DNA from: Chrysomallon squamiferum
Lineage: Eukaryota; Animalia; Mollusca
DNA length: 64,000 nucleotides
NCBI GenBank assembly: GCA_012295275.1
Contig: CM022676.1
Coordinates: forward strand, 682,001-746,000
Direction: 5' to 3'
The notes below the pieces were generated by a model. The model had not been told where the DNA came from and did not search any database. It worked only from the letters and a program-made list of their open reading frames with translations. Below are positions 255-64,000 of the stretch, piece by piece (positions within the stretch are counted from its first letter, which is position 1; each line of letters starts with the position of its first letter). The position numbers were made by a program, and so were the translations under genes.

Positions 255-3200
255 ATGATACATCGCAGGAAAATCCAGTCTGCTCCAGGGAATACTGTGA
301 AGCCATTTTACTACCCAAGCCGACAGAAGAGGCTGAATCCTGAACAAGAAATGGTTTGTCATTGATCTTAAAATTATTTAATAACTTTAAAAAGCAACTA
401 CCACTACCCTGGTTAAATCATTGTTAAGAGAATTATTATCATTCATGTTCCATCTGATAGGTCAGTATTTTATTCCAAATTTCATTTATAATAATTACTT
501 AAACTATATTATCATCTCAGAATACATCATTTTCTACAGCCAGTAATCCAATGTCTCTGTTAAATAAATAATAATTCAAATTGTTTTTTGTCTTGTATGT
601 CAGATAGCACTGAGTCCTAACAGGTCTTCATCCAAATCAGATTTAAACTCGTCAGATCAGCTTTTTCTACGAGGCACACATCTCTTTTATGACCAGCCAA
701 AAGAGCTGAAACAGTCACCAAAGTTAGACGAATCATGGCCAAGCAGTGAGAGGGCTTCCAGGTAACTTTTGTGTTTAAAACTGTTAAAAGTCAGCGCTTC
801 CAGGTAACGTTTGTGTTTAAAACTGTTAAAAGTCAGCGCTTCCAGGTAACTTTTGTGTTTAAAACTGTTAAAAGTCTGTGCTTCTGAAATTTTGAGAAAA
901 AGAAATAGACACTGACATACATCTGAATAAAAACAATTATGAAGATGTAATTCAAATGATAATTTTCATTAAACTTTTACCTGATTGTTTATGGCAGGTT
1001 TATAAAGACATTGCTGTTATGCACAGACATATGTAGTATTGGTATATTTAGCCAGAAATTAATGAGCTAATTTCTTGAATAAATGGGTTAATTGTTATAA
1101 ATACATTTACAGTATTTGTCATAACCAGCAACTCATGTTTATTTTAATCAAAACGGCCACCACATGCTTCCAAGCAGTTGTTTCCTTTTTTAAGTTTATT
1201 ATTTTTTTCTTTTATATTATATAAAAAGTGTATGTATCTTCCTTCATATTTATTAGTAATGATTAGTCATTGAAAAAAAAGAAATTTACTACAGGTGATA
1301 AATATTACACTTCATGAAATTTAATTTGATTCATAATGACAAAATAATTTTTGTTTACATTTCATCTTATTACTAATTTATTAATAATGTTGTTCTTGTT
1401 GTTACACTGTTTATTACAGTTTTTCTGATGATCAGTTTCTTCCATCAAGATCAGATTTGTCAGAATATCAGAATAAAAAACACAGTTTTGATTTTTCTGA
1501 AGAAAGTGAAGTGTTGACATCTGATCAGAAAACAGAGTCAAAGGGAAAGTCAGTTTTACAAAGGTGAAATGTTTATGACTAACATATTAGTTGATAGTGT
1601 TTAGATGAGTTCGTCACCCAGAAACCTGCCAAGTTCTGGAAGCATGAAACTGCCTCAAAGATGGCAAAAGGCAGTGAAACAAAATGGCACATGTTTGGTT
1701 TAAAAATCTAAATATTGTCTTAGAATTTCTCTTTCAAAAATCTGTTCCAACACACAGCAGTAAAAACGTCTCTTAAAAGTGAAGTCAAAATAATGGATAC
1801 TATAGGATAAGTTAAAGTAATAAAAATTTCATTTTTTTAAAACTTTTTCTTCTTATTATCATTTTAATTTTTTTTATTTTTTAGGTATAAATTATAACAG
1901 ATTTTTAAGAATAATTATTGCATTATGTAAATTATTTCACTAGTTGTTTGATTTGTTAGCATTAATATTTACTTTCACTTTTTAAAGAGTTTTCAGTTGA
2001 TAAAATTTTGAAATAATGCTTTTCATTCAGAATTAATTTTTTTATTAATTCTTGGGTTTTTTCATTATAATGATGACATAATATTTTTTTATTACTATTT
2101 TTATTTTGTGCATACATTAAGTTACATATTTGGCATGCATATAATTTATATCTATGTATCAGAGTTCTTTGTTGTAGATACATAGACAGATTTCGACATG
2201 GTAAACCACTGAGTCGTGAGGAAAGAAGACAACTTGGAATCTCAGAAACTAAAGATTTCTGGTGGCTTGATTCATCTCCACCAACTCCAAGTGATTCATC
2301 CACGCCAAAAGATGAAGTGAAGGGCAGAAGCAGGCAGCATAGACCCTCATTCCAGGTACAAACAGAAACATTCAACCACAAAATTTATTTTTATAAATCC
2401 ATTTCATCTTTAGGTTCATGTGAAAATAATCATGTTATTGTTCAGATTGTTTTCTCTCAAGTTATAATTTTCTTGCCAGTTTTGTATATAAAGAAAATAA
2501 TTACCTAAAAATATTTGCATGTTGCTTAGTTCCTGTTTTATTTCATTCACACTGAACATTGAGAAAACAAGATCATGTTGTAATTACACTTCTTGTTGTC
2601 TTTCTTGCCAAGGAAACACAAATATTTTTATCTTGTCTTTTCCTTTATTATTACTAACTTTTCTTTTCATCATCTTTTGTAAAAAAGACATTATTTTAGT
2701 GGAATGCCATAAAATTTTATGATGTCAAAATAAAACAGAAAATGTCAACATCCGTGAATCTGCATTAGATTTAATATTACTGTCATGTCAGCAAAGATTC
2801 ATCAAAAAACAAAAACAAAATTGAAAGAAAACAAAACTTTTAGATTATTTGTTCTTCTTATTAAAGTTATTCTATTTAATTGCATCAAAGTGAATATAAA
2901 TTTTTATCAGTCAAGTCAAAAAATGCCAAACATTGTTGTGATTTGTTTTACATCACAAAGATTAAGAAAAACAAAATTATGTAATTTCACTTTGTATAAT
3001 TTGGTGCTGTTCAGGAGGCACACAGCAAGGCTGAAATAAGAAAGTCCAGTGATGATGAGGGCAGAGAAGATGAAATTATAACAGAGATGCAGAAAAAAGC
3101 TGACAGACTTGTTGAAATGAGGTGATTGTAGATTTTTTTTTTATTTCGATGTTTTTACCACCATTTAACAGCAACAACTAAAAGTAGACAGCATCCAGAC

Positions 3201-3496
3201 ATTGTGTGGAAGAATAATAGCGTGTGACACTTCTACACAGGAAATTACATGTTTTAATCTTTTTTTAATGACCTCAGGATGTTATAAATAATATTGAATT
3301 ATAAAATGTGTTGCTATTTTATATAAATTAAATCAATGTTAAAAGAATGAAGTTCATTTATCAGTGACTAGTTATCATCACAGTCATACTGGATAGGTAG
3401 ATCTATAAAATATTTGTAGGTATATGTGTGTGTGTCTATATATATATATATACATATATATACATATATATGTATATATATATATATGTATATATG

Positions 3497-3536
<40 letters not shown>

Positions 3537-6500
3537 AAATCTGCAATGACAAATTGATTTTGAGCCAGATTGTTTACAATACAAATACAGTTTTAAAAGT
3601 GATGACTTTTGATGAGTTTCAATGTTGACAAATGTTTGTTGATATTTCAGTGAATGCAGTCTTGGCTCTTCAGGCCCGGCAGTCAGTACAGATGGGTTGG
3701 GCAGCACATCAAGTGACGTGTACAGTTTACAACACCACACCCTACCTCAGCGTCCACTCCATCCAACAAGTCACAGTCAGTGTACTTACTTATTTGTTGT
3801 GTTACTGTTTTCATTCATACAGAGACTAACATTACCTACTGTGAAGTTATTTCCTATATTTCCAGATTTAACTGATGTTTTGTTTCAGATGCTGTGACGG
3901 GTGAGAGAAGAGTTGAGCCAGTGATACCGTCGTGGACGTCAGGTCCTGAAGATGATATTTTGTATCGCTGGAGGTTGCAGAGAAAGCTGGATACAGCAAG
4001 AAAAGGAATCATCAAACCTGAAACTCTGAAACCCACAAAAGTAACTTGTATACTACATCTACTTTGAACAGTAACTTGTATACTACATCTACTTTGAACA
4101 GTAACTTGTATACTACATCTACTTTGAATAGTTAATTCATATATTACATGTTCATTGGAAAATAATATCTCAAGTCAAATAAAAAAAAGTAAACAGTAAA
4201 AGATCCCAAAATAAAAGTGTATGTGTTATAACATTATAAACAGAACTAGTCAGGGTCTTTACATCAGTTTACAAAGTGAAACCATTAACAGTTAAAGCTA
4301 AAGAAATAAACTGAACACAGCTGTTGAAAAATAACTCAGTCAGTAAAGTATAACAGTATTGGGTGGAACAAAACTTTGTAAAAAATTTCACTGGGAGGCA
4401 TTTTACTTCATCTCACTGGCAAATGAAATATATTCCGAAAGGTGAACAAAATTGTAATGTGTGGTTGAATAAAGCTATGTACAGATATCTAAATATTTTC
4501 TTTGGATAAAAAAAATCTATGTACTTTTGTTCCAGTACAGTAATTACTAGTGTTCTTGTGGTTAATATTTAGAATTGCTGATTTTGAGAGAGATAAATTA
4601 TCTTAGAGAATTTGAAACAAACTGTATGAGAATTACTGAATGCTATATCATATCTTCAGCAGTAATAATATTCACAAGCATGGCATTAATACTGTTTAAT
4701 GATTATTTAGTTTTTAATTGTTTTAGGATGCAGACAACATGTTAGAAGATTTTGGTCAAAGACTGACAAGAAGGGTGTTACAGACTGGTGATACGTTCAC
4801 TCCCAGACAAGTGCAGCAAGACAGAACAAAAACACTGCAGGTACCTCGACACACTGAAAATAGCAAAGTCTTGTATTTCATAGATATACTTGTTAATTAT
4901 ACATTTTTTAAAAACAGCATAGACTGCCAGAAATACATATTATTCCATGCAAGTTAAATAAGTGGATGAAATGAAATGGGTTTGGTAATTTCTGCAGGTA
5001 TTAACAAGTATTGCTGAACTGTTGTTTGAAGAATGTAACCAGCTGTAGAGTGAATGCTGGGCTATCATTTCTTCATCACAATGCACACAAAGCAAACAGA
5101 TTTTAATATTCACCATACAGTCACTCAGACTTTTGTAATTGTTCATCAACAGTTGTTTTTTTCTCAGTCTTATTGATGATTGTTACAAGTACAGTTAAGT
5201 TTCAAAAAGTACTTCATTTATTTCTACCCATTTAGTGTAACAACCAGCATAAATATATTTTTAATATAAAAATAAAATAAATTAAAACAAGTAGCTAAGT
5301 GTATTAAGTGCATATATATAACTTAATTGATTTTTATTTCATTTTATATTATTTGTTTGACTGGATACATATGCAGAAACTAATAATATTGTCTTTGTAA
5401 ATGTAACTAAAGAAAATCTGGAAATTTAAAATCAGTTTTCATCCTATTCACATTTTCAGGATATTTCAATATTGTTCTCTTTTTTTTCAGGTAGAAGTTG
5501 AAACACAGACAACTGAAGATGTTATTTTATCAGGAAAAGATGAGATGTCAGAAGAACAGTCCAAAACAAAACCTTTCACAGTTTCACAAGCAGTAATAGC
5601 CAGTCCAGTAGCATCTCAAGAGAAAATATCTTCTGTTGATCCTCACTTCCATTTCATGTGTGACTTGTTACCCTGTTCACATCTTCCAGAATACTCAGAC
5701 AACAGAAGGCAGAGTCACACACAGAGGAATTCCAGACATGCAGATATCAGTTCTGAAGGTGAAGGTGACAGTGTGCATGGTACAAAATATAAACAATATT
5801 TACAAGCAGAGAAACCTGACAGTGACAGGAAGAAAAACTTCACAGAAAAAGATGAGAAAAGGCTGGACCAAAACCACGCAACACAAAGCCAGTGTGATAA
5901 AAGTGGTGGTTTTCATAGACACATCACTGAAGTGAAAAGACGTGACTGTAAACAAATATCAAATGGAAAAAGAAAAGTGCATTTAAATTCATCTGCTGAA
6001 GGTTTGTCCAGTGAAAGACAAGCAGATGTCACCTTTTCTGAACCTGAGGTAGAAAGACACAGAGCTGTGTTGTTGGACTCTGACACAAGAATTCCCAAAA
6101 TAAACCTTTCCAGCAGTCCACACTTGACAGCAGCAAGAATTAATTCTGCAATTGGTCAGGTAAAATTTAATATTTGTCTTAATGATTGTAATTCTCTAGT
6201 CACTGAAAACAGTAAAGGCACTTTACAAGTAAAAACAGGAAATATTGTATGAGAATTTGGTTGGATAATTTGAATGAATCGTGATTTTGTCAGTAAATCT
6301 GTCCAGTGTAGTCTGGTTAAAACACATAAATTAACATTAGTAAATTAAAATCTCATCTTTTTTGTAATCATGTAAATCTTTGAGATTCATTTTTCAATCA
6401 AGCAATGATCTATTAATTTGTTCATCCATCATTAACTGATGTTGCTGTTATTTTTATTATTAGTAATAGTATTTATGTTATCAACATCATCGTCATTTTT

Positions 6501-9500
6501 ATCTAATGAAATATTTTTACTGTTTATTCATGGCAGATTAATCTCAAATTCATGTTAATGTTGTTTGTTTGGGTTTTTTGTTAGCAGTTTTATTACTGTT
6601 ATTGTTATTGTTATTTATTATTACTATTTCTATTACTTCTGTTATTAGTATTATTATTATTAAAGGTTGTGGAGGATCATTTGTTCAGAAGATCAGATTT
6701 AACAGTTGTGTCTAGTGTAGATAGTTGGACATCACTGTCAGAAAGTAGACCACAGACAACCAGACAACAGACACTTGAGTCTTCAGTCAGTAACACTGAC
6801 ACACCAGAGAAGAAACCTATACTAGACACTGATCTCAACAGTTAGTATCAATTTAACTATTCATTTCAGCAGTATGAATTATTTAAAATATTGATTTATG
6901 AGTAAACTTACTTAGCATATGGAATTTTTATACTTAGCATTATTTAAAATATTTTTTTTTATTAATAAAGTTATAAACATTTAAAATATTAATTTTTATA
7001 GTAAAATTCTGAATCTATTAAATAAACTGAAAGAGTGAAATGCAAAACGACAGTATTCAAGAGTAAAACAGTAGTAAAACAGAATGATTTTGACAAATTC
7101 TACAAATGAAAATACAGTTAATTTATGATTATTAAATATAGTGTAACTACTTAACAGTTAATATAACAATTTATCTCTTAATGTAACTAAACTTAAATGT
7201 TAATAACTATTAATTAAGAATCTAAACCTCAGATTAACACAAACAAAAACAAGAAGTTTAAATAATGCAAGCAAACTGAAAGAAGTAATAAGAAGTTATT
7301 TTATTTTTAAAATTTGTCATTAAATTAGTTATACAAAATGTTCTGTGTATCATTGTTACAGATGTACAGTATGAATCAGATGGAGAATTTTCAGATGACA
7401 GCTTGCTTCAGATCCTGAGAAAACAACGCTCACAGTTTGAAGAGAAACTTAGGTTTGTTTAAAACAGATTGTAAAAACATCTATACAGTAATATTTTATA
7501 AACTCAGGTTTGTTTCAAAACAGTTTATAAATAAGAATCTATACCAGTGGTTCTCAACGTTTTTCTACTCTCGACATACCTACGAGCGCATGAAACTGTC
7601 GCGACACAGTAATAATTTTAAATATTATATGATGAAATCGTAAAATAAATTTAAAAATACATATATGGACTTGTCTGATACAGTTTATTATGTTAGTATC
7701 CCAGAATTACCACTTACCTAGTGTGAAACTTGTGCCTGGTGTTGTCTTATGACTTCTTGAATATTTGGTCGTATGTGCGATAAGCAAACTCTCATTTCTT
7801 CTTCAGTGGAACGTAGTCTTTCTCTCTTCTTATTTTTTATATTATTTAAGGTTGAAAAGCCCAATTCACACAAGAAGTAGAGAATTGTAAAATAACTAAT
7901 AGGGCTTTTTCAGCTAATGCGGGAAATTCCTTTTGTATTGAAATCCAAAATGTGTCGATATCTACCTCAGAATGCTTTATTTTAAGACTGCGATCACTTG
8001 AAATGGTAGCCAGTTCTTCTTCTTCGCATAATTTAAACCCAATATTAGAAGGAACATCTACAAAAGGATTACGAACCCAGTCGTACTTTTCAGTGTACAG
8101 CGACGGAAAGTAGTGGTCGATGTTTTCTTCGAGCGCTGTCAGATGCTCAACCACGATAGGAAACATATCAAACTCACTCAACTTCGCTCTGTTTTTCCAA
8201 ATAATTTTCTTTTTAAGGGCAACCAACTTATCTGTCGAAATTAAAATATTTTCGTTTCGATCTTGCATACTATTGTTCACAATATTACGCTGACCAAATA
8301 TTTCCGTTAAATATTCCATTTTGGCCATCCAAAATTCACATCGAAATATTTACAAAATCTTTCTAGCTTTTCTTTATCAAAAAATACTATTAATTCATTC
8401 TGTAATTCATGAACGCGAGTTAACACTTTACTTTTTGACAGCCATCGAACGTCGGTATGCATGAGTAAGCGAACATGTTGAGAATTGACAATTTCAACTA
8501 CTTGATGTAACACTTGCTTCAAATCTTCTTGTGATACTTTTGAAACTAAAACGTCTCTATGTAAAAAGCAATGAGTACGAACAAGATTTGGATTTTCTTT
8601 CTGTGCTAGTGATGCAAAACCTTTAATGCAGCCTACCATTCATGGAGCACAATCAGTACAAATACCATGGATTCATTTGCCATTTTTTCACCACAAACTA
8701 TACATAATGAACATGGCTGAGCAACATCTCCTGACCAAGAAAATCCGAACTTCAAATAATCATCACAATACCGTCTATTATGGTGAACTTTTGTCTGGAT
8801 TTTGTGGGCTTCATTGTATGTTCTGTTTCAACCTCATATCCGTCACTAACATCCTTCCTTTTAACAAATTTATCCATTGCGAAGGGGTATTCATAAGCAA
8901 TTAACACGCGCGTACTCTAACCAACAACGGTAAACAACAGGCAGTGTTAAACTGATCCGTGTGTCAACTGTCAGCCTCCTGTGTCAAACTGGAACATTAA
9001 GTAGTGTTCAAAAAAAATTTCATTCAATCACCTTCTGAAATATATGGTAAAAACTAACCTTTATTCTACCAATGCAATAACAAAAACTGAATATCTTTAA
9101 TTAATTCACCATATGATTTAACTCAAGTATTGCGAGCTAAAAACAATAGTTTGAAAGTGCGTGAACAACACTGATTCTGAGGTAAACAAATTGAAAAATA
9201 TGCAAGCACAGAAAACAGCGTTCAGTTCTAGTTATGATTAGTCATAAACTAATTTAGTTTAAATTCATCTGTAATTTAGAGGTCAAAATTGAGCGTGTAG
9301 TACGATTGTGTTCCAATTAAGTAAGCACTGTTAACTGAACAGATTTGCCGTGACGACAGATTTGCAAAGTCTGTTCTAACTAGGATAATTTCTTAACTAA
9401 ATACACCTAGTTAGCTACATCTCTTTACTAATAAGTGTTTAAGAATGACAATAATTTAAAACACAGCGAAGTTAATTCGGCAATCGGCATTATGCACGCG

Positions 9501-10175
9501 CACACACGACCAGTGCGGAACAACACCACGCACACAACCTGTCACACTGACGTCTCATGGGAAACTAACTGATCGACCTTGAGTTCCTTCCTCCAAGGCA
9601 TATTAGTAGAACATGAAACCGAGATTTATGCACATTGTCCGTGTTTTCGTCACAAAGTTTCGCGACACGGCGGTTGAGAATCACTGATCTATACAGTAAT
9701 ATTTTATAAACTCAGGTTTGTTTCAAAACAGTTTATAAATAAGAATCTATACAGCAATATTTTATAAACTCAGGTTTGTTTTTAAATAGTCCAACAAAAA
9801 CTATTTAAAATTATAACAAATATATTAAAAAAAGAATTTTTCTACTTGCTTCTGTTATTTAATTTTGTTTATAATCAACACTAAACATTTTATAAATTTA
9901 ATCTTCAAAAATGATAAATATTTACGATGAGGTACACACATAAGGCAAAACCACATATTTTGTTTATCGCTTTATAACCGAACACATTTTGTCTTATTAC
10001 CTTGTTACAGAAAGCTGGGAGAGGTTGATGATTTTTGCTCCTTTTTTCTTCTTGATTGTTTGATCACTGTCAAATAGTTTGTAAAAATGTTAAATATTCT
10101 ATTTTCTTTTGTTGTTTTCTTTCCAGTAAGGTTGATCATCTTCTTTCAAAACGTACAACAGCGTCTCAGTATTAA
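255..10175 (+). CDS. PROSER3: Proline and serine-rich protein 3-like (C19orf55 family), 12 coding exons
   Basis: Phase-consistent GT-AG exons: 255-353, 604-761, 1420-1563, 2178-2355, 3015-3121, 3651-3775, 3889-4040, 4727-4840, 5491-6159, 6666-6840, 7362-7452, 10127-10175 (TAA). The translation contains motifs I recall from PROSER3 homologues: YYPSRQ, DESWPSSE, SVLQRYIDRFRHGKPLSREER..DFWWL, EDDILYRWRLQRKL and C-terminal EFSDDSLLQILRKQRSQFEEKL. A 5' UTR exon probably lies upstream of the window (acceptor at ~225). Confidence 0.8.
754..876 (+). repeat. 42-bp x3 tandem repeat spanning a splice donor
   Basis: Unit GCTTCCAG|GTAAC(T/G)TTTGTGTTTAAAACTGTTAAAAGTCAGC at 754, 796, 838; the first copy contains the real donor at 761/762. 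Confidence 0.9.
4041..4131 (+). repeat. 30-bp x3 tandem repeat beginning at a splice donor GT
   Basis: GTAACTTGTATACTACATCTACTTTGAACA at 4041, 4071, 4101; exon ends at 4040. Confidence 0.9.
5491..6159 (+). CDS. PROSER3: Largest PROSER3-like exon (669 nt, low-complexity Ser/Glu/Lys-rich, contains DPHFHFMCDLLPC)
   Basis: Polypyrimidine tract plus AG at 5489-5490, CAG|GTAAAA donor at 6159/6160; overlaps ORF 5545..6252. Confidence 0.8.
7545..9686 (-). mobile_element. hAT DNA transposon, Buster/Charlie/SPIN-like, internally deleted (non-autonomous)
   Basis: TIRs CAGTGGTTCTCAAC (7545-7558) and GTTGAGAATCACTG (9673-9686) match at 13/14. Perfect 8-bp TSD ATCTATAC at 7537-7544 and 9687-9694 with central TA (nnnTAnnn, the Buster-type target). 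Transposase remnant inside. Confidence 0.95.
7718..8877 (-). pseudogene. Frameshifted, internally deleted Buster-type (ZBED5/SCAND3-like) hAT transposase
   Basis: Fragments in different frames: MDKFVKRK start (8877), YCDDYLKFGF, CTD..MVGCIKGF..HCFLHR, HTDVRWLSK, WVRNPF, FWISIQKEFPALAEKAL..FSTS and terminal EMRVCLSHIRPNI..HQAQVSH* (stop 7718-7720). Confidence 0.9.
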
Positions 10176-28705: not shown

Positions 28706-28736
<31 letters not shown>

Positions 28737-29566: not shown

Positions 29567-29643
<77 letters not shown>

Positions 29644-33493: not shown

Positions 33494-33543
<50 letters not shown>

Positions 33544-38874: not shown

Positions 38875-38941
<67 letters not shown>

Positions 38942-39005
38942 ACACACACACACATACACATGCACACACATCACAGTCACAGACAGACAGAAAAAGAAGA
39001 TGGAC

Positions 39006-39037
<32 letters not shown>

Positions 39038-43874: not shown

Positions 43875-43931
<57 letters not shown>

Positions 43932-46749: not shown

Positions 46750-46786
<37 letters not shown>

Positions 46787-52004: not shown

Positions 52005-52090
<86 letters not shown>

Positions 52091-55000
52091 AAAAAATAGC
52101 CATCAATTTGATCAAAATTTGATGCCGGCACAAAAGGAATCCATGATACGTTTTGTCAATATTGTGAACCGCTGTTGTCTGTGATCATGAAGTTTAAAAC
52201 AAAAGCACGCTTACAACAGAATCCCGACAAGATCGCACCAGTATGTAGAGGGGAGGGTCGATGGGAAGAACTTAATAAATTTGGAGGATTTATATTTAAA
52301 TAAAATAAAGTGTCTATTTTATGTTTCATCTCTGTTTACTTATTCGAAATGTCTTCCTTTCTCATAGCATTCTCAGTACTAGGCCTAATACTTGAGTCTT
52401 TGGGACATACATTCAAGGAGTTGGGCCCGGGCTCCAGCAGACGTTTTCACCTATTAGATCACACAGCCTGTTTTGAAAACAATTACTATAAAGCTTGATG
52501 AAGATTACTCATCAACAAAACTGGAGTTAACTTCACAGAAGGGTCAGTTGCTTAAATCTGTGAATGGATTCATTTATCTCTTTGACAGAAACTTAAGCAA
52601 TGGAAATAGTTCTTTGCGCTGTACTTCAAAAAAATGTCCAGATCGGATACATTTGAACAATAATCAGGTGACAAATGTAACATCACAATCATGTACAATG
52701 AAGTGAAGCAGTGTCTATCTACAGTCTGCGACTTCTCGAGATACACAGCGACTTTTGATTGAACAACAGCAAGATTCGCTCAACTTCCGAAATATGCATC
52801 CACTGAAAGAATGACAGAACTGCAGTCGTGGACTACCTATGATGTATTTCTTATAATGTGGAACTACACGTTTGAAGTTTTTGTTATTTGTTTATTAGAC
52901 AATCTGAAAAAACTGAAGTTGATGACTATCTTGGAATGCTTATAATTTATAACTAACGTTTGAAGTCTATGATTTGTGTCCTAATGTTTCTTAAATAATA
53001 ATTGAAATAATAACAAATATTTTACTGTCTTACGTCGTCCCACCAACGAAAACTCATAAAACAAAGTAAATAGAAAACTCATAAAACAAAGTAAACAGAA
53101 AACTCATAAAACAAAGTAAATAGAAAACTCATAAAACAAAGTAAACAGAAAACTCATAAAACAAAGTAAACAGAAAACTCATAAAACAAAGTAAACAGAA
53201 AACTCATAAAACAAAGTAAATAGAAAACTCATAAAACAAAGTAAACAGAAAACTCATAAAACAAAGTAAACAGAAAACTCATAAAACAAAGTAAATAGAA
53301 ATATAATAATAAATATCTGTAAAAAACATATCTTTATCAGACAGAGGGATGTTGAAATTATAAACATCTTGACAAGTAATTGATCAAATGTTTTTTATAA
53401 ATTAAAATATCAGTTTTCCGCTTTCTAAATATATTCATGCTGCATTCTGTTAGTATAAAAATATCACAAAACTGAACAGTTAACACTGATTTATTGTTTA
53501 CTTTCAAACCACTGAGTTATTTAAGCCATTTTCTGTAATAAATACATGCATATTAAGATTTATCTGTAACAAGTATATGTATAATGTTTTACCTGTAACA
53601 AGTATATGTATGATGTTTTACCTGTAACAAGTATATGTATGATGTTTTACCTGTGACAAGTATATGTATGATGTTTTACCTGTGACAAGTATATGTATGA
53701 TGTTTTACCTGTGACAAGTATATGTATGATGTTTTACCTGTGACAAGTATATGTATGATGTTTTACCTGTGACAAGTATATGTATGATGTTTTACCTGTG
53801 ACAAAGTATATGTATGATGTTTTACCTGTGACAAGTATATGTATGATGTTTTACCTGTGACAAGTATATGTATGATGTTTTACCTGTAACAAGTATATGT
53901 ATGATGTTTTACCTGTGACAAGTATATGTATGATGTTTTACCTGTGACAAGTATATGTATGATGTTTTACCTGTGACAAGTATATGTATGATGTTTTACC
54001 TGTAACAAGTATATGTATGATGTTTTACCTGTAACAAGTATATGTATGATGTTTTACCTGTGACAAGTATATGTATGATGTTTTACCTGTGACAAGTATA
54101 TGTATGATGTGTTACCTGTAACAAGTATATGTATGATGTTTTACCTGTGACAAGTATATGTATGATGTTTTACCTGTGACAAGTATATGTATGATGTGTT
54201 ACCTGTGACAAGTATATGTATGATGTTTTACCTGTAACAAGTATATGTATGATGTTTTACCTGTAACAAGTATATGTATGATGTGTTACCTGTGACAAGT
54301 ATATGTATGATGTTTTACCTGTGACAAGTATATGTATGATGTGTTACCTGTAACAAGTATATGTATGATGTTTTACCTGTAACAAGTATATGTATGATGT
54401 TTTACCTGTAACAAGTATATGTATGATGTGTTACCTGTGACAAGTATATGTATGATGTTTTACCTGTGACAAGTATATGTATGATGTTTTACCTGTAACA
54501 AGTATATGTATGATGTTTTACCTGTGACAAGTATATGTATGATGTGTTACCTGTGACAGTGAACTGTACGACGCACTTTTCTTCGTTCCCCTCGTCGTCT
54601 GACGCTGTAATCAGCACAGTGTGCAGTCTGCCGATGCTCAGTTTGTCCAGTGTCAGCTCTTTCACCGAGTATGACAGAATGACGTTGCCGGAGTTGTCAC
54701 TGGCCTGCTCAACAAAGTCAGATGCATCAACAGTGATGACGTCATCAGCACTTCGAATCCGAACTTCAGACCAGTTCTTACATGTCAGTTTAGGAGGCTC
54801 AGTGTCTGAACAAAGCATAACACAGAGTAACAACAATCATCTCTAAAACTGTTTAACTTTAGAAATGTGAAAACCACATGTGAAAAAAAATATGCAAATC
54901 TGCAATTTCAGTACATCAAACAATACATAAAATAAATACAACATATTTGTGCAGGTCACTACCTGAATTTCAAAGAACTGCAAGTGGATATCTTGAATTA

Positions 55001-57351
55001 CATATTGCACTAAATTGTAATAATTATAACAGTATAAGTTAACATTCAGAACAGTCGTTTAAAGACTCTTAACTGTATTTTCTATAAATCTTTTTACTGA
55101 ACCACAACTCATATAATATTAGTTTAAAAAAAAACAAATAAAATCAAAATGTGTTTTTCTAAAATAATGATGACATGACTGAAAGTTTGCCATTGTGAAA
55201 CCAAGTTTACCATCATGTAAAAAAAATCCCATCTATTTCAAAACATTTTATTTCAAATTAATTACTGTAAAACACGTGTATAAATGTTTACCTCGTGTTT
55301 TGATTTTGACGATGCACGTTCCCACGTTGTTTTCGTGGTCTGTTGCTGTGTAGACGACGCGCATGTCACGTGACACAATTGTGGAATAGCTCTGGAAGTT
55401 GACTGGATCAACTGACCTGCTTCTGATTAAACCGCTGTTGTCTGATGGGATAGGCTCGGGATACATGGCGGGTGAAAACTGATTGACAGTTACCACGCCT
55501 ACTGGACAACTGTAGAAAAATGGACTTTGCTGGTCTGAAATTTGAAGAAGTCATTTCTTAATGGTTTATTAAGTGTACAATGTACATAATTTAAATATTT
55601 GTTGATACTAAAGTAGAGTCATTTATAAAGTTGCTTTAAATAGTGCATTGTTTCCTTCACAGGTAATTTAATATTTATAGTCAACACGTAAAAAAATATT
55701 TTTTAATTTTTCATTTCAAAAAGAAATATGTGTGTGTAAGAAGTAACAGTGAAGTGAAATGCGCTCACCAGTACAGTCTGGGCGAGTTGCGAGTCTGGTC
55801 TGTGTATGTATGTATGTGTATGTATGTGTGTGTGTGTATGTATGTGTGTGTATGTATGTGTATGTATGTATATGTGTGTGTATGTATGTATGTGTGTATG
55901 TATGTATGTATGTATGTATGTATGTATGTATGTATGTGTATGTGTATGTGTATTTATGTATGTGTATGTATGTATGTGTATGTATGTGTGTATTTATGTA
56001 TGTGTATGTATGTATGTGTATTTATGTATGTGTATTTATGTATGTGTATGTATGTATGTGTATTTATGTATGTGTATGTATGTATGTGTATGTATGTATG
56101 TGTATGTATGTATGTGTATGTATGTATGTATGTATGTATGTATATGTATGTGTATGTATGTATGTGTGTGTATGTATGTATGTATGTATGTGTATGTATG
56201 TATGTGTATGTATGTATGTGTATGTATGTATGTGTATGTATGTGTGTGTGTGTAAGAAGTAACAGTGAAGTGAAATGCGCTCACCAGTACAGTCTGGGCG
56301 AGTTGCATTCCAGCCTAAAGCTTGTTTCTCTGGAAACCAGACACATTTCAGTGGGTAGGGGTTTGTTGGGAGGAACCCATTTCTCTCACACCCGTATCTT
56401 ACCAGCGTGTGTTCTTCATATGTCGTGTATTTCTCATCAAGTTGATAGCCACCAGGGGGCGTGCCAGGATCCAGGCAAGTAGGACCTGACAGAAATGTAT
56501 TATTTTGGCAAAGCTTGCTAATTTCAGTGCAGTAAAAGGTACTGATCCCAAAAACCTAAATAATTCATTTCTATTTTTGCTTTAAAAAATATTAACAGTA
56601 GAGAAATGTTGAATTACAAATGTAATTTAATTGCAAAACATTAGGAGACCAAGAGACTGAGAAAAAAACAGCATCTTTCATGTTACATTATAGTGACATC
56701 AACAACAAGGAATTTTTTATTTTGATATTTCGTAACCGCGCTGAACAAACTGTCACGACGTTGTAGATTGTTATAGAGTTGGACTGGCAATGTACACAAC
56801 TCTACAATACATCTACAACAGATCGTCAACATCATACAAACCAAACACAATAACTTGCTTCAAAATGGCAGCTGACAAGTCAACCATGATAACCAGGCTG
56901 TAAACTGTTTTGTGAAATTATAAACATCGTTTTATTTTCTTACCAGGACACCTCAGATCTCCGAAGTCCCACTTCCCATTTGAACTACAACGTACACTGC
57001 GGTCTCCTGCGCTGCTGTGACCCTCCAGCGTGAACCACGGCGTCCGACACTGGAACGTGAAAGAGCAGTTGTAGGTTGTACACGAGTAGACAAACGTCAA
57101 CGCGCCGTGTTTGGGTTCAGGAACACCGCAGTTTACATCTGTAAAACACAGTATAAATATTCCTTGTAGACTGAGTGTGCGTGATTTTGATTGACTCATC
57201 CTTTCTAGTCTATTATCATAATACTACCAATCAATGTCATCACAGTATTTTCTATAAAGTTTTATATTAAACTAGTTTATTTTAATTAGACATAAATTAT
57301 ACAATTACTTTAAACACACATGTACATGAAAAACTTTCACATACACACTCA

Positions 57352-57404
<53 letters not shown>

Positions 57405-60400
57405 TCGCAACTCGCCCAGACAGTACTGGTGAGAGCATTTTACACGTGTGTGTATGTATATGTGTGCTCTTACCTATTTTAATTATTACTTATAATAATC
57501 ATTATTATTTTTTGTTCTCACCGAAACAGGAGAGGTTTTCAGAAACAGCTTTGTAGCTGTCGGTGTTCCTGTGGTAGACACATCGCCGTTTCGTCGCGTA
57601 GTTTCCCACGCCTGCCAGCGTGCACGTCAGGTCAAAGTAGTCGAGGTAGGGTATCGGGGTTTTAGGCGAAACCTGGGCGATGTTCGCCGTGTTCTGCCGC
57701 GGCACCAGGGCCGGGCACTGGGCAGCTGAAACAAACATCTTCATTAACAACATTACATACATCGAGATCAGAAGTAATCTGAAAGTCATTCAAGGTCTCA
57801 TTTTAGTAAAATTCAGGAACTCAAATGTTACAACTTTTTACAGCAATTGCTGTAACATGTAATATTAACCTGAAAATGGTGTAAAAACATTGGACTTAAT
57901 GAGGTAAAAAGATTTTATTTTATCTGACAAAATTATAAGAATATCCAAAGTTATATAATTACAACAATTCAAGTATAATTCATAACCTTAAACAAATAAT
58001 TTCTAAGTTTAGAGATATTCTAGCAGCTGTAAGACGATGAAGAGATTTGAGTTCACTCTACACGTCATCATTTCTTACAAACACAGGTCGGCGGGGACCC
58101 GATCCACCGTCCGTCCGCACACGTCATCGTGTCGACACCGTGCGCCACGTAGCCGACGTCACACAGGTACGTGATCTTCTCACCGGACGAAAACTTCTTA
58201 CTTGAAGTCAAAGCGTAACCGTTAGGAACTGTGAGCACTGGAGCGGAACATGACACTCCTAAAAGTTTAAAACATTCCATACAAATAGTTACCAGTTTAA
58301 TGAATGTCAGAATAAAGTTGTTTCATTTAATTTCTTCTTTTTTTTTAAATCAGTTTATAACTGTTAGGTTTAAATGGCGAATGATTTAGCATGTAAGCAT
58401 ATGCAATTTATAAATAATTCATTAAGTAATAAACATAATTTAAAAAGCTTGTTGATAATAATAATCTTATAATTAACATTTAAACAAACTCTGTAATGAA
58501 CTACAAGCAGCACTCACTGACACAGGAGTGGTTGGCGCGGTGTGTTTTAAACGGGTCTAGGTCACCGAGGCTGACTTCGCCCCGGTATAACACGTAGTTC
58601 TGTTTACACGAACACTCGTAACTTCCGGGCGAGTTGAAACAGAAATGATCACAGCCGCCTTTGTTTACAGCACACTCGTCAACGTCTAAGGAACAAAACA
58701 ACAACAAGTTTTCTTACAGTTCTTGCATGTTCCTCCGTATACACACGTTGACATATCAGTTGTGCAGTACTTTTCAAATGGTAAAATAAGGAAACTCATA
58801 CTAAAATGTATTTAAATCAAGAAACTGAGGTTGAAAATGTACAACATCTTTTATTGATATAACTTGAATAATTTAAACTAGAACATGTAACACTGAACTT
58901 CATCACAAAATTTTAAATTTTATTGTTAAAAATTGTAAAATTACTTTATCAATCTGCTGTGCTCTGTGATGACAGTACAACTGTAAACAAGCGGTCACTA
59001 CGTACCTATACACTTGCGAGAGTCGTAACTAGCAACTTTGTAACCTGCACGACAAGAACAGACAAAACTTCCAACTGTGTCCTTACACACGTGATCACAG
59101 CCCGCCACGTGACTCACACATTCATCTACGTCTGAAAATAGTAATAATAATAATAACAGTAACAGTTATAGTAGTAACAGTAACAGTTATAGTAATAATA
59201 GTAACAGTTATAGTAATATAACAGTTATAGTAATAACAGTAACAGTTATAGTAATAACAGTAACAGTTATAGTAATAACAGTAACAGTTATAGTAATAAT
59301 AGTAACAGTTATAGTAATAACAGTAACAGTTATAGTAATAACAGTAACTATAATGATGATGATGATGATGAAGTTTGCACGACAGGTGAAAAGAAGCCGC
59401 TGACTGATGACTTACTGACGCACTCCCCGGGTCTGTCCAGTCCACACTGGAAGTTCTGTTTACCAACCACGTTGAACCCGCTGTTACAGATCAGCGTCAG
59501 CGTGTCGCCCACGTGGAGCTGCACGTGCTGGGAGACTGTTCCGTTTGCTACGTAGGGGACAGCGCACCTCCTCTCTAAAATAAAAAATATTTATAGTGAG
59601 ACAGACAGACAGACAGACAAAACACACTACAACAGAGAGAGCCAGTGACAAAGATAAAAGAAATGAAAGAGGAAATGTGCTACTGACGTAGTAATAGTAG
59701 CAGGACAACACATATCACAGCTTTTGAAAAAGAGGGTGAAAACTGGTACATGCACTGATGTGACAAGTCTTACTCAGACACGACGGCACCGACTGTGACC
59801 AGCTGCCACTGGAACACACCAACGTGGCAACTCCAGCAACCTCATACCCACTGCTACACTGAAAGCGCACCACAGACCCTTCATCATAGCCATTTCCGTT
59901 CAGGACAACGTAGTGGCCGTTGTTGACGGAATGAAGTGCAGGACATCGCCGTGCTGAAAGATGAATATTGATACTTGTGTCACAGCAAGAAAAACAGGAA
60001 AAACAGCACTTTATAAATAAAGAAAACAGTTTGTATTAGTTCAGTACAGGTTTGTACACACTTGCCTTTTGCAGTAAAACTGTTCTGTCATAAATTACCA
60101 GTACGTGATATGTAAAGTTACTTTTAGATGAAGATATGCAGTTATCTGTATAATCCACCCAGATGCTTTATATTAGTTATTTGAAATAAAATGCTTATCT
60201 TCTCTTAACATTTTAATAACTTTATAAGACAAATATTAAAGTACATGAAAATCTGCTTATCAGGATCAGTAATATGAACATTCAGATGTGTATACCTCTA
60301 CATGAAATTGTGTACTACAGGTGCATGAAGGTGTGTATTACTGTACATGAAATTGTGTATTATATGTGCATGAAGGTGTGTATACCTCTACATGAAATTG

Positions 60401-61399
60401 TGTACTACAGGTGCATGAAGGTGTGTATTACTGTACATGAAATTGTGTATTATATGTGCATGAAGGTGTGTATACCTCTACATGAAATTGTGTACTACAG
60501 GTGCATGAAGGTGTGTATACCTCTACATGAAATTGTGTACTACAGGTGCATGAAGGTGTGTATACCTCTACATGAAATTGTGTACTACAGGTGCATGAAG
60601 GTGTGTATTACTGTACATGAAATTGTGTATTATATGTGCATGAAGGTGTGTATACCTCTACATGAAATTGTGTACTACAGGTGCATGAAGGTGTGTATTA
60701 CTGTACATGAAATTGTGTACTACAGGTGCATGAAGGTGTGTATTACTGTACATGAAGATGTGTATTACATACATATATGAAGTGTATTACATATATATAA
60801 AGATGTGTATTACATATATATATATGAAGGTGCATATTACATATATATGTGGTGTGTATTACATATATATGTGGTGTGTATTACATATATATGTGGTGTG
60901 TATTACATATATATGTGGTGTGTATTACATATATATGTGGTGTGTATTACATATATATGTGGTGCGTATTACCTGTGCATGAAGGTGGTGTACCCCACTC
61001 AGCTGTACTGAGGCAGGTAATAGTCGAGGATGATGACGTCAGAGTGTATCCAGTTTTACAGGTGTAGCTGGCAGTGTCACCAGAATACAGTCCCGATGTA
61101 GGTAACAGGTAAGCGTTTTCTACAGCAGGCGGCAATCCACAGAACACACCTGATAAACAAAGTAATTAATTAATAAACTCACTGTGTGCATAATTATATA
61201 AGAAATTTCAGAAATATAACAACTTAATTAGGTTTCCCTTATTATGTCTATCTTTATTTTTTCAATTAATATAAAATATTGTGGTAAACAGGCAGAGTAA
61301 GAAAGACTGACAGACAGGCTAGTAATTGAATTCACCAGAAAAAACTGTACAGGATAAATCAGGGATTTAAAAAGGATCTTGTAATTCACTCTTGTATAA

Positions 61400-61430
<31 letters not shown>

Positions 61431-64000
61431 GAGAAAGAAATCAGTTTATAGTAATTATTTGTTCAGTGTGTGTAAAATTAAAATATTATGATATAAAAAG
61501 TAAAATTACGTGAACAAGTAGGTATCGGGTTTTTATCCCACTTCCCGCCGAGCAGACAGGTCAGTTTTAATGTCGACTGTAGATGCATTGATTTTGTTGT
61601 AAACCTGTAGTTGTTGATACATGATATTGTAACAGCGTCGCCGACGTAACGACTGTACGGGTTTGGCTCTGTTTTCAAAGTTGCGTCTTCAATCAGAGGA
61701 CAGCCTGGAAAGAGATGAAATATTTGACCTAGAGAACACTCTACACCTCTCAGATCTATGTTAACTACAGAACACTCTACACCTCTCAGATCTGTGTTAA
61801 CTACAGAACACTCTACACCTCTCAGATCTGTGTTAACTACAGAACACTCTACACCTCTCAGATCTATGTTAACTACAGAACACTCTACACCTCTCAGATC
61901 TATGTTAACTACAGAACACTCTACACCTCTCAGATCTGTGTTAACTATAGAACACTCTACACCTCTCAGATCTATGTTAACTACAGAACACTCTACACCT
62001 CTCAGATCTATGTTAACTACAGAACACTCTACACCTCTCAGATCTGTGTTAACTACAGAACACTCTACACCTCTCACATCTGTGTTAACTACAGAACACT
62101 CTACACCTCTCACATCTGTGTTAACTACAGAACACTCTACACCTCTCAGATCTATTTAACTACAGAACACTCTACACCTCTCACATCTGTGTTAACTACA
62201 GAACACTCTACACCTCTCACATCTGTGTTAACTATAGAACACTCTACACCTCTCAGATCTATGTTAACTATAGAACACTCTACACCTCTCAGATCTATTT
62301 AACTATAGAACACTCTACACCTCTCAGATCTATTTAACTACAGAACACTCTACACCTCTCAGATCTATGTTAACTACAGAACACTCTACACCTCTCACAT
62401 CTATGTTAACTACAGAACACTCTACACCTCTCACATCTATTTAACTACAGAACACTCTACACCTCTCAGATCTATTTAACTACAGAACACTCTACACCTC
62501 TTAAATCTATTTAACTACAGAACACTCTACACCTCTTAAATCTATATTTACTATCACACTATATATTATTATGGCCACAGTTTACATAGATAATCAGACA
62601 AGAAGGCTCCAAACCACAGCTTATGATAAATTCTTTACTGCTTAGCAGAAACTGATTCTTTATATAAACCCTCCCATTGTCAGGAATATAGAACATATAT
62701 TTATAAAAAAAATAAAACAGTAAGACAGATGATATCGTTCATCCAGAGGTACAGCTAAATAAATCAATTTTGTTTTCTAAAATATATATATATTTTTAAA
62801 AAATTAAAAATTACTATTAGAGAATGATTCATATTCATAATTATATTAAACGTTGTTAATAAATCATTACAATGATACTTATAGACAAACTAACAATGTA
62901 AAAAGTAAGCAGTTAAAAATACAATTTAAAAACACTCAATGTACACACCAGCAGAAAACGTGGCTCGGAATCCTCGTGCTGTGCCCACTGCACTTGTCTT
63001 GAAGTGAACGAACAATTCCCCAGTTTTAGAATCAACTGGCTGCGGGAGAGCATTTCCAGTGAATCCTTTACCCGAGAAGAGTGGTGCCCCGTACGTGTTA
63101 CTTCCCTGAAATACCTACAAGCAGCACAAACACCATGTTAACTAATTATATTACAGTGTTACTTCCCTGAAATACCTACAAGCAGCACAAACACCATGTT
63201 AACTAATTATATTACAGTGTTACTTCCCTGAAATACCTACAAGCAGCACAAACACCATGTTAACTAATTATATTACAGTGTTACTTCCCTGAAATACTAC
63301 AAGAAACCAGATTTTAAGTCACATTCATATGTAAACTTTGATCCATGTTTTCATGTTTTAAATACTTTTCAATTCCTGAGTATTTTTTTAAATAATTCAA
63401 CAAAAATAAGCAAACCTGCAGAAAGTCATTTTTTTCAATGGCGAACGGAGGACTGAATGTCAGTCTGACAGGAGAGTTGTTAGGGGAGGTAAGGTGCCAG
63501 GTACAAACTAGGATGCTGGGATACGATCCAGAAGAGTAACCAGGGGAGGTAATTATTCCTGATGGGTTTGATGAAGAATAAGTACAACCTTGAAAATAGA
63601 AAGAAAATGTTTTCTGTATCACTAACATAAAAATACAATAAATATGTAACGATAATAGTTTAATTAAATGTTTTATATCAGTTCTATGTCGCCCAAGAAA
63701 GTAATTACAAATGCATACATTAATATTAAATTGAGTTAAACCTTTGCTGGAAATCAGTACAGTATTTATTATGATGATTAACTGTCTTTTTATTTAAAAA
63801 AGAAAACTATTACATAATCAAGTTCCTTAAGCAAAGTGATTCATTTTGCTAGCACTAATATTTACTTCAATTTGTTTCCTTTAATTTATAATCCATGAAT
63901 TATATTTTATAAAAGAAATATTAAAAGACAAATTACTGTGAACAAAACTGTATTTTTGTCAGCACGTGTACACCTACCCGCTCTGTACAGTAACAGAAAG
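23511..64000 (-). CDS. Large single-pass CUB/sushi(CCP)/EGF/HYR/GCC2-GCC3/pentraxin-LamG membrane protein, Uninflatable/SVEP1-like; 5' part outside window
   Basis: About 46 GT-AG exons on minus: >64000-63978, 63588-63416, 63105-62949 (CUB), 61704-61510, 61149-60973, 59953-59774, 59574-59416, 59131-59006 (sushi/EGF), 58685-58518 (cbEGF), 58258-58079, 57725-57522, 57138-56944, 56485-56285 (sushi), 55534-55292, 54805-54551 (HYR), 51876-51685, 51324-51092, 50415-50166, 49734-49570, 49298-49143, 48150-47983 (GCC repeats), 47500-47411, 45500-45384, 44997-44859, 44296-44160, 43782-43564, 43029-42793, 41988-41861, 41321-41128, 39988-39858, 39246-39133, 38818-38678 (EGF array), 38395-38227, 37769-37530, 36906-36619 (pentraxin/LamG), 36137-36006, 35725-35630 (HYR), 35463-35263, 34782-34545, 33027-32851, 32279-32118 (GCC), 28822-28784, 27212-27075 (TM), 26434-26374, 25829-25689, 23868-23511 (stop). 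Confidence 0.88.
25985..26382 (-). repeat. Degenerate ~24-bp minisatellite containing the donor of exon 26434-26374
   Basis: Plus-strand unit TTTACCTGTCAACACTGTGTTATA, which reads TGTTGACAG|GTAAA on minus; ~16 diverged copies. Confidence 0.8.
26860..27000. repeat. ~33-bp T-rich minisatellite
   Basis: TTCTATGTTTAGTTTCAGTATTTTCTGTTATT repeated ~4 times, with degenerate copies upstream to ~26650. Confidence 0.75.
27075..27212 (-). CDS. Transmembrane-helix exon of the Uif/SVEP1-like gene
   Basis: Reads ..[34 protein letters not shown]; hydrophobic stretch followed by CCC and charged residues; AG and GTAAGT boundaries. Confidence 0.85.
27640..28428. repeat. Intronic minisatellite with higher-order ~202-bp periodicity
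   Basis: Variant 26-34-bp units CAGTGACACTGATCAGT(CAGT)CCTGTGTTAA(CAC)AAA; identical ORF starts at 27846, 28048 and 28250 show a 202-bp super-period. Confidence 0.9.
29545..29670. repeat. (TTA)n microsatellite
   Basis: Direct reading; encodes the spurious poly-Asn ORF. Confidence 0.9.
30520..30980. repeat. 17-bp minisatellite
   Basis: ATCACAGTGTCTGC(A/T)CT units, ~27 copies; source of the spurious Cys/Ser-rich ORFs. Confidence 0.9.
38124..38221. repeat. 26-bp x~4 repeat abutting the donor of exon 38395-38227
   Basis: GTCA(G/T)ATAATACAGATGTTAAGTAAT units end ~4 nt from the donor. Confidence 0.8.
38865..39105. repeat. (CA)n/(GA)n compound microsatellite
   Basis: Direct reading; similar CA tracts at ~3498, 33499, 35115, 43877 and 57353. 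Confidence 0.9.
39983..40768 (-). repeat. 49-bp x~16 minisatellite containing a splice acceptor
   Basis: Unit TTACA(C/G)CTGTCACAACACAAAGTGTTAATCAGACAGACAGAAACTGAGG; the first copy holds the acceptor (39989-39990) and 6 exonic nt. Confidence 0.92.
42215..42765. repeat. ~29-bp x~19 minisatellite ending ~27 nt from the donor of exon 43029-42793
   Basis: CATGATGTAAATCTGTATACCCAGTAAAA units. Confidence 0.9.
44495..44848. repeat. ~22-bp AT-rich minisatellite abutting the donor of exon 44997-44859
   Basis: TTATAAATATTTAAAG(C)TGTA(A/T) units, ~16 copies. Confidence 0.85.
45491..46680 (-). repeat. 45-bp x~26 minisatellite containing a splice acceptor plus 10 exonic nt
   Basis: Unit CCAGTGTGAA|CTGAAACAACAGCAGACACACTTAAACATCTACAT; real acceptor at 45501-45502. 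Confidence 0.93.
47037..47198. mobile_element. Degenerate Tc1/pogo-type MITE
   Basis: TA|CAGTCAAACCTGTATATAACAGCC at the left end and imperfect inverted copy GGCTGCTATAGACAGGTGACTG at ~47177-47198; inserted in a TA run. Confidence 0.5.
48143..48430 (-). repeat. 20/27-bp variant minisatellite containing a splice acceptor
   Basis: ACACTGCA|CTGAAATGTACATCAAAT and ACACATCACTGAAATCAAAT units; real acceptor at 48151-48152. Confidence 0.88.
48918..49110. repeat. ~40-bp x~5 repeat ending ~30 nt from the donor of exon 49298-49143
   Basis: TTTTAAATAAAGT(G/A)TTTTTCACATAAAGATCTAA units. Confidence 0.8.
52009..52087. repeat. (AG)n microsatellite
   Basis: Direct reading. Confidence 0.95.
52095..52930 (+). 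mobile_element. Probable Mutator-like (MULE/FLYWCH) transposon remnant
   Basis: ORF 52473..52706 reads [19 protein letters not shown]...[12 protein letters not shown], resembling a FLYWCH zinc finger, antisense to the host gene. Possible imperfect terminal inverted match ATAGCCATCAATTT (~52096) with AAGTTGATGACTAT (~52916), 12/14. Confidence 0.5.
53049..53300. repeat. 25-bp x10 minisatellite
   Basis: AAAACTCATAAAACAAAGTAAA(T/C)AG units. Confidence 0.9.
53565..54558 (-). repeat. 29-bp x~34 minisatellite containing a splice donor plus 8 exonic nt
   Basis: Unit TTAC|CTGT(G/A)ACAAGTATATGTATGATGT(T/G), which reads TGTCACAG|GTAA on minus; real donor at 54549-54550. Confidence 0.93.
55730..56308 (-). 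repeat. ~60-bp direct duplication of an exon end plus donor, separated by a ~450-bp (TATG/TG)n microsatellite
   Basis: GTGTGTAAGAAGTAACAGTGAAGTGAAATGCGCTCAC|CAGTACAGTCTGGGCGAGTTGC occurs at ~55732-55790 and ~56248-56307. Confidence 0.9.
59140..59352. repeat. 21-bp minisatellite abutting the acceptor of exon 59131-59006
   Basis: AGTAATAACAGTAACAGTTAT units. Confidence 0.8.
60287..60987 (-). repeat. Compound 45-bp and 22-bp minisatellites derived from the exon 61149-60973 donor region
   Basis: The 45-bp unit contains exon-end GTGCATGAAGGTG. The 22-bp unit ATATATATGTGGTGTGTATTAC ends in the donor hexamer (GTAATAC on minus) and abuts the real donor at 60971-60972. Confidence 0.82.
61732..62545. 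repeat. 36-bp x~22 minisatellite starting ~26 nt from the acceptor of exon 61704-61510
   Basis: AGAACACTCTACACCTCTCAGATCT(A/G)TGTTAACTAC units. Confidence 0.92.
63095..63301 (-). repeat. 61-bp x3.4 repeat containing a splice acceptor plus 11 exonic nt
   Basis: GTGTTACTTCC|CTGAAATACCTACAAGCAGCACAAACACCATGTTAACTAATTATATTACA at 63095, 63156, 63217, 63278; real acceptor at 63106-63107. Confidence 0.92.

What the first reader, a model, noticed from the sequence alone, without database searches (positions are those of the whole stretch)
754..63301. Systematic splice-junction-anchored minisatellites: unrelated tandem repeats copy splice sites into introns of all three genes
Seen: about 12 duplications or arrays include the real splice site, usually with 6-22 exonic nt. 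Donors are copied at 761, 4040, 7452 (+) and 26374, 54551, 56285, 60973 (-); acceptors at 14779, 39988, 45500, 48150, 63105 (-). About 6 more arrays begin within ~35 nt of a junction (38221, 42765, 44848, 49110, 59140, 61732). Only ~5 clear arrays lie deep in introns (25065, 27640, 30520, 31395, 53049). Unit sequences and lengths (~20-61 bp) are unrelated, so this is not one dispersed repeat family; each array was generated locally from its own junction. The frame-restoring site is always the exon-proximal copy and the array grows into the intron. Inference: a mutational process targets exon edges (splicing- or R-loop-coupled breaks, nucleosome-edge breaks, or rolling-circle re-integration of micro-circles), and the spliceosome must ignore or process dozens of near-perfect decoy sites. 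I know of no named description of this as a genome-wide system.
Basis: partly seen in the sequence, partly recalled or inferred. Interest (0 to 1): 0.9.

Follow-up and report, generated by a model that had tools for sequence, protein, structure and literature searches.

The report
Snail "mirage" repeats at splice junctions
In three genes of what is likely a snail, 12 exon-intron borders have been copied head-to-tail into the neighbouring intron, a repeat type already named "mirage" in lancelets and known in human genes; here repeats sit at exon edges about three times more often than chance, which likely reflects an unexplained bias in where short duplications arise.

Summary
A 66-exon model (three open frames, all GT-AG; genes B and C backed by mollusc homologues) gives 126 junctions. 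Twelve have a copy in their own intron. Short-read contigs break at, or run through, the repeats tested, so these are no assembly artefact; one donor array differs between samples. Enrichment holds in this window: 9 of 25 arrays span or abut a junction against 3.1 expected (p≈0.002), and 16 of 25 end within 35 nt against 6.1. The window was picked for this pattern, and deep arrays number 8, not 5. The claim that nothing like this is named is wrong: these are amphioxus "mirages", also known in human F7, CBS and others. This scan found the same before on other DNA (annelids, abalone, urchin, shark). What stays open is why they favour exon edges. Chance microhomology does not explain it; junctions reading YAG|GT are over-represented (7 of 12 against 22 of 114, post hoc). 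No RNA was available. New member of a known kind.

The parts
226..10180 (+). Gene A, 12 modelled exons, 700-aa open frame, unidentified (resemblance to PROSER3 is recalled; no call supports it)
   Evidence: no hits
754..884 (+). 42-nt x3 array spanning donor 761 (8 exonic nt)
   Evidence: contigs of 4 of 4 runs break at 783/847
4040..4132 (+). 30-nt x3 array at donor 4040 (1 exonic nt)
   Evidence: contig breaks at 4069/4099
7445..9788 (+). 58-nt donor array at 7452 (8 exonic nt; real site plus 3 copies), split by a transposon
   Evidence: the X1 contig joins 7478 to 9687
7545..9686 (-). Decayed multi-copy DNA transposon, 14-nt terminal inverted repeats, 8-nt target duplication (hAT-like by recall)
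   Evidence: sequence; depth far above flanks; broken ORFs; no Pfam hit
13880..18191 (-). Gene B, nuclear receptor (zf-C4), 7 exons, 434 aa; low end approximate
   Evidence: 337 of 434 identical to Gigantopelta aegis P0001
14762..14915 (-). Old two-copy ~65-nt duplication of acceptor 14779; the copy scores higher (9.7) than the real site (3.7)
   Evidence: one contig spans it in 4 of 4 runs
23517..63588 (-). Gene C, 47 modelled exons, 2697-aa open frame; CUB, Sushi, HYR, EGF and Ephrin_rec_like domains; start lies further upstream
   Evidence: Lottia P0126 aligns over the whole length
25994..26382 (-). Degenerate 24-nt x16 array spanning donor 26374 (9-13 exonic nt)
38123..38221 (-). 26-nt array starting 5 nt into the intron after donor 38227
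39983..40766 (-). 49-nt x16 array spanning acceptor 39988 (6 exonic nt)
42214..42764 (-). 29-nt array 28 nt after donor 42793
44496..44843 (-). 22-nt array 15 nt after donor 44859
45492..46655 (-). 45-nt x26 array spanning acceptor 45500 (9-11 exonic nt)
48143..48429 (-). 46-nt (20+26) x6 array spanning acceptor 48150 (8 exonic nt)
   Evidence: contigs of 4 of 4 runs break at 48172/48392
48915..49132 (-). 40-nt array 10-31 nt after donor 49143
53559..54558 (-). 29-nt x34 array spanning donor 54551 (8 exonic nt); 33 intact copies of the donor
55729..56306 (-). 62-nt direct repeat of donor 56285 (22 exonic nt), 516 nt apart, with a CA-type microsatellite between
57407..57443 (+). Inverted 37-nt copy (92%) of donor 56285 in another intron, beside a CA run
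59137..59348 (-). Low-complexity 21-nt array ending about 6 nt before acceptor 59131
60287..60987 (-). 22/45-nt compound array from donor 60973; distal units resemble the exon end, donors decayed
61729..62553 (-). 36-nt x23 array ending 24 nt before acceptor 61704
63095..63303 (-). 61-nt x3.4 array spanning acceptor 63114 (20 exonic nt), 99% identical copies

Best explanation
These are "mirage" minisatellites: local tandem copies of each gene's own exon-intron border, likely born as ordinary short duplications that arise more often at exon edges and likely spliced out unused. Steps: (1) Shown: each array is a local copy of its own junction, with an unrelated 22-65 nt unit. (2) Inferred: a seed duplication forms during repair of nearby nicks or a break, or by replication slippage, at a rate raised about threefold near exon edges, probably because of chromatin or transcription features at the edge between GC-rich exon and AT-rich intron rather than the splice signal itself. 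(3) Inferred from standard population genetics: selection removes seeds inside exons and seeds that disturb splicing, which leaves those whose exon-proximal copy keeps the real site and whose unit is mostly intronic. (4) Partly shown: units then expand, contract and homogenise like any minisatellite; one array differs between samples. (5) Inferred from human F7 and amphioxus: the spliceosome takes the exon-proximal site, and rare use of a decoy gives a frame-shifted or stop-containing RNA that would be degraded.
For: 12 of 126 junctions carry a copy. 9 of 25 TRF arrays span or abut a junction against 3.1 expected, p=0.002; 16 of 25 end within 35 nt against 6.1, p=3e-5; p stays at or below 0.02 in all five array sets under both nulls. 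Arrays that hold no junction are also enriched near edges (7 of 16 against 2.3, p=0.005) and are not detectably junction-derived (0 of 8), which points to position and not to the splice motif. The exonic share of the unit is under half in 11 of 12 (p=0.006). 0 of 100 well-scoring decoy sites give an in-frame stop-free product. Homologues align across the exon-proximal sites. Sample X1 lacks the transposon and one 58-nt donor copy. Exons are 48% GC with median 165 nt, introns 29% GC. Literature: mirages do not disturb splicing and are length-unstable (PMC3087553, passages); only the most upstream of identical donors is used in F7 (PMC1557585, passages).
Against: One window, chosen because it showed the pattern, and 92 of 126 junctions come from one gene. 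No call observes the birth mechanism. The YAG|GT excess suggests that the junction sequence does matter. The 14779 decoy scores better than the real site, and one in-frame decoy exists at 45545. Human 6-16 and CBS do use some pseudo-sites. The F7 scanning result covers donors only, not acceptors. The splice-site scores were trained on the same 63 introns.
Confidence: 0.6

Rival explanations
1. No real bias: duplications arise evenly in a repeat-prone genome with short introns, junction-spanning ones are merely tolerated, and this window is a lucky draw singled out by the first reader.
For: Chance alone gives about 3 of 25 spanning arrays. The window was selected after the fact from very many. 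Gene B has one old case in 12 junctions.
Against: p=3e-5 for 16 of 25 within 35 nt. Chance microhomology of 6 nt or more is rarer at junctions (1-2%) than deep in introns (8%), so an even slippage model predicts fewer. The same pattern recurs in notes on other genomes (leads only).
Confidence: 0.18
2. Splicing- or transcription-coupled targeting: the splice junction itself (R-loop, paused polymerase, spliceosome-bound RNA, RNA-guided end joining) marks where breaks form or how they are repaired.
For: All 20 junction-spanning or near-junction arrays have an end within about -22 to +31 nt of the junction, on donor and acceptor sides. Transcript RNA can steer end joining (PMC11390984, abstract and section titles only). 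Donor 56285 was copied twice, once inverted.
Against: Splice-site strength does not differ between array-bearing and other junctions (p=0.31). The position data cannot separate this from a chromatin effect.
Confidence: 0.12
3. Survival filter by self-correction: junctions that read YAG|GT give copies that are both acceptor and donor, so mis-splicing can be undone by re-splicing or recursive splicing, and such arrays persist and grow.
For: YAG|GT at 7 of 12 array-bearing junctions against 22 of 114 others, Fisher p=0.006; donors 5 of 7 against 13 of 56, acceptors 2 of 5 against 9 of 58.
Against: Post hoc, one of three features tested, n=12. Five arrays lack the motif, including the 26-copy array at 45500. 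Tolerance alone cannot lift frequency above the neutral rate. It does not explain arrays that only lie near a junction. Most copies at 39988 have lost the GT (sequence).
Confidence: 0.08
4. Assembly artefact of long-read or repeat handling.
Against: Contigs of four runs from three studies break at the arrays at 754 and 48150 and run through 14779; breaks are also listed at 4040 and 48915. Arrays carry patterned internal variants and a transposon with a target duplication.
Confidence: 0.02

Closest known systems
Amphioxus 'mirage' minisatellites (Adh3; globins BflGb6 and BflGb9; troponin C; PGBD5). Read: passages of PMC3087553 and PMC3902484. The original Adh3 paper (Canestro et al. 2002, PMC117041) is not held and is known to me only through these.
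   Same: [quoted passage not shown]
   Different: Here a gastropod-like genome; 12 cases in three adjacent genes; a measured excess over a null; an added class of arrays that only lie near junctions. Splicing outcome not tested here.
Human junction-spanning VNTRs: F7 IVS7 (37 bp), CBS IVS13, interferon-inducible 6-16, LMNB2, PDGF intron 4 (PMC1557585, abstract and passages)
   Same: The first monomer spans the boundary, the donor is reiterated in the intron, the array is polymorphic, and the most upstream site is normally used.
   Different: The human cases are scattered and donor-side; here donors (7) and acceptors (5) are both hit, at about 10% of junctions.
Intron gain by duplication of AG|GT proto-splice sites (Rogers model, as cited in PMC3087553)
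   Same: Duplication of a segment with AG|GT; 7 of 12 junctions here read YAG|GT.
   Different: The arrays sit at one end of existing introns and do not match both flanking exons; no new intron is shown.

Membership tests
Mirage minisatellites | Tandem repeat whose unit spans a real exon-intron boundary | tested here: met
   10 tandem arrays plus 2 two-copy duplications; boundaries from open frames and homologues, not from RNA
Mirage minisatellites | Unit derived from the host gene, unrelated between loci, about 10-160 bp | tested here: met
   Units of 22-65 nt; longest shared word 10 nt in 105 pairs
Mirage minisatellites | Many copies keep AG/GT signals | tested here: met
   100 sites at or above the 25th percentile of real sites, in 10 of 12 arrays
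Mirage minisatellites | Length instability between alleles or individuals | tested here: met
   One array only: X1 lacks one 58-nt unit and the transposon at 7452. The other arrays could not be sized from contigs.
Mirage minisatellites | Regular splicing is undisturbed | not testable with these tools
   No RNA holder listed; only homologue alignment supports the exon-proximal sites
Mirage minisatellites | Somatic instability (Adh3) | not testable with these tools
   Needs single-molecule data from one animal
Recursive (ratchet) splice sites | YAG|GT used as a zero-length exon in long introns | tested here: inconclusive
   Motif present at 7 of 12 junctions, but introns are short (medians 454-599 nt) and no RNA was available
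Dispersed repeat or transposon family | Shared unit across loci | tested here: not met
   exon-edge queries hit only their own intron, apart from one inverted copy and weak matches

The most novel reading that the evidence does not exclude
In this and other marine invertebrate genomes a mutational process places short duplications preferentially at exon edges genome-wide (about 10% of junctions, about threefold over chance), with a preference for YAG|GT junctions whose copies can be re-spliced. Mirages would then be the footprint of an undescribed link between exon chromatin or splicing and germline DNA repair, and a standing source of intron sliding and gain.
Probability: 0.3. Interest if true: 0.7.

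Novelty: new member of a known kind. Interest (0 to 1): 0.35.

Why it matters
The repeat type is known, but PMC3087553 calls its origin unclear, and my nine paper searches (open-access library only) listed no genome-wide test and no mollusc case. If the threefold edge bias holds in unselected genes, it would show that exon edges are duplication hot spots and give a direct handle on intron gain and sliding. The arrays are also natural tests of how a spliceosome picks one of 20-30 identical acceptors, which the F7 work (donors only) does not cover. In practice they break short-read assemblies next to exons and can mislead gene prediction.

Tried and rejected
No genome held, so no genome-wide test. 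No RNA holder listed; this is no evidence on expression. Homologue searches with single exons of genes C and A found nothing (length cap 2000 aa); the representative search then gave gene C homologues. Chance microhomology as the cause of junction bias: rejected, it is rarer at junctions (deep-intron matches include low-complexity A/T runs). Stronger splice sites at array-bearing junctions: no difference. Erosion of flanks until an array meets the exon: not supported, the distal remainder (median 378 nt, n=16) equals array-free introns (median 457, n=40, p=0.83). Near-junction arrays as decayed mirages: the first test was faulty (end-gap setting) and is discarded; the repeat found 0 of 8 significant. 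Long versus short arrays: no difference (5 of 12 against 7 of 18 spanning). The hand-curated set of 30 events (12 spanning against 4.1) includes cases found by eye, so the TRF set is the one relied on. Filters applied before counts: TRF period 15 or more, score 60 or more, low-complexity below 0.6, arrays outside the 63 introns dropped; the looser sets gave 8-9 spanning of 22-41. The terminal-repeat identity printed used coordinates off by one or two bases and is discarded. Pfam gave no family for the transposon ORFs or gene A exons (one weak sub-cutoff hit ignored). PMC12783039 (earthworm metallothionein; passages) does not describe junction-spanning units. Papers were seen as listings only. 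The atlas search did not complete. Earlier-finding look-ups by place and by mollusc words were empty. No supplements were opened; those of the cited papers may hold more cases.

Full report
What the window is. It is 32% GC animal DNA; no whole genome is held. I modelled three genes by chaining GT-AG exons. Gene C (minus strand, 63588 to about 23517) has 47 exons in one 2697-aa frame with all sites canonical; gene A (plus strand, 226-10180) has 12 exons in a 700-aa frame; gene B (minus strand) has 7 exons and 434 aa. Gene B is a C4 nuclear receptor whose best named match is from the snail Gigantopelta aegis (337 of 434 identical), so the window is likely from a related snail; the species was not determined. 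Gene C has CUB, Sushi, HYR, EGF and Ephrin_rec_like domains and aligns over its whole length with a Lottia protein (1095 identities in 2742 columns; 37 of 46 junctions gap-free within 6 residues). Gene A rests on its open frame alone. No RNA run was listed, so no junction is RNA-proven.

The observation. For each of 126 junctions I searched its own intron for a copy. The next junction scored 11. Units are 22-65 nt and unrelated. The six near-junction arrays are there, but none of 8 such arrays is detectably derived from its junction.

Not an artefact. Short-read contigs of four runs from three studies break at 783/847 and at 48172/48392 and run unbroken through 14779; breaks are also listed at 4069/4099 and inside the 48915 array. 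The 7452 donor array is split by a 2142-nt element with terminal inverted repeats and an 8-nt target duplication. A contig of run X1 joins 7478 to 9687, so that sample lacks the element and exactly one 58-nt unit.

More than chance? I collapsed arrays to one unit, removed the transposon, and let a seed unit fall evenly, straddling allowed. Nine of 25 TRF arrays span or abut a junction against 3.1 expected (p=0.002). Sixteen of 25 end within 35 nt against 6.1 (p=3e-5). Four other array definitions and a within-intron null gave p from 2e-5 to 0.019. Among the 16 that do not span a junction, 7 still end within 35 nt against 2.3 (p=0.005). The caveat is serious: the window was chosen for this pattern and one gene supplies 92 of 126 junctions, so these values are not genome estimates.

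How it likely works. Chance microhomology does not favour junctions (1-2% against 8% of positions). Flank erosion is not supported. Site strength does not differ. That arrays without a splice site also crowd the edges suggests a positional bias in where seeds form. Exons are 48% GC with median length 165 nt, introns 29% GC; a link to nucleosome edges is my inference from general knowledge, not a result. Selection then shapes the survivors: the exonic share is under half in 11 of 12 units, and none of 100 well-scoring decoy sites would give an in-frame stop-free product. One further copy, 45 nt upstream of 45500 and not among those 100, is in frame and open; it would add 15 residues that homologues lack. 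One extra signal is an excess of YAG|GT (7 of 12 against 22 of 114, p=0.006), which could let mis-spliced copies be re-spliced; it is post hoc and small. Donor 56285 was copied once directly and once inverted about 1.1 kb away, each time beside a CA run, which fits template switching during repair (inference).

What is known. PMC3087553 (passages) defines them as tandem repeats spanning exon-intron boundaries in amphioxus Adh3 and globins, on both sides, length-unstable, not disturbing splicing, and of unclear origin. PMC3902484 (passages) adds PGBD5 and troponin C. PMC1557585 (passages) lists human F7, CBS, 6-16, LMNB2 and PDGF, and shows for F7 that the most upstream of identical donors is chosen; it also notes that 6-16 and CBS use some pseudo-sites. 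The original Adh3 paper is not held. Unchecked notes report the same in annelids, abalone, a sea urchin and a shark, one with only modest enrichment. My searches listed no genome-wide study and no mollusc case, but they cover only the open library.

Verdict. A dense, real example of a known repeat type: new member of a known kind, interest 0.35. The open point is the cause of the exon-edge bias. If it holds genome-wide (probability about 0.3 for the strong form, including the YAG|GT preference) it would deserve about 0.7.

Noticed in passing
window 7545-9686: Decayed multi-copy DNA transposon (hAT-like by recall) inside the 7452 donor array; absent from run X1, so a presence/absence variant.
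   Followed up: partly
window 57338-57443: Inverted 37-nt copy of donor 56285 next to a CA run; it shares its leading bases with the direct copy at about 55790, so it likely came from that copy.
   Followed up: partly
window 14844 versus 14779: The duplicated acceptor scores better (9.7) than the site that the homologues support (3.7); a good candidate for real decoy use.
   Followed up: partly
window 45501-45545: The copy nearest acceptor 45500 is in frame and stop-free, and reads Tyr where the exon has His; the Lottia homologue has Tyr there, so the copy may keep an older exon state.
   Followed up: partly
window 61728: The 36-nt array ends in TAG 24 nt before acceptor 61704; this AG is an in-frame alternative that would add 8 residues, which four of five homologues do not show.
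   Followed up: partly
window 60287-60972: Compound array: proximal units have drifted to an AT-rich 22-mer while distal units keep the exon end, in a 45/90-nt higher-order pattern.
   Followed up: partly
window 27633-28436: Deep array with a 33/66/202-nt higher-order structure.
   Followed up: no
window about 52248-52500 and 13351-13884: Contig depth far above flanks, suggesting further dispersed repeats.
   Followed up: no
window 19380-19620: CpG-rich patch upstream of gene B that may be its promoter or first untranslated exon.
   Followed up: no
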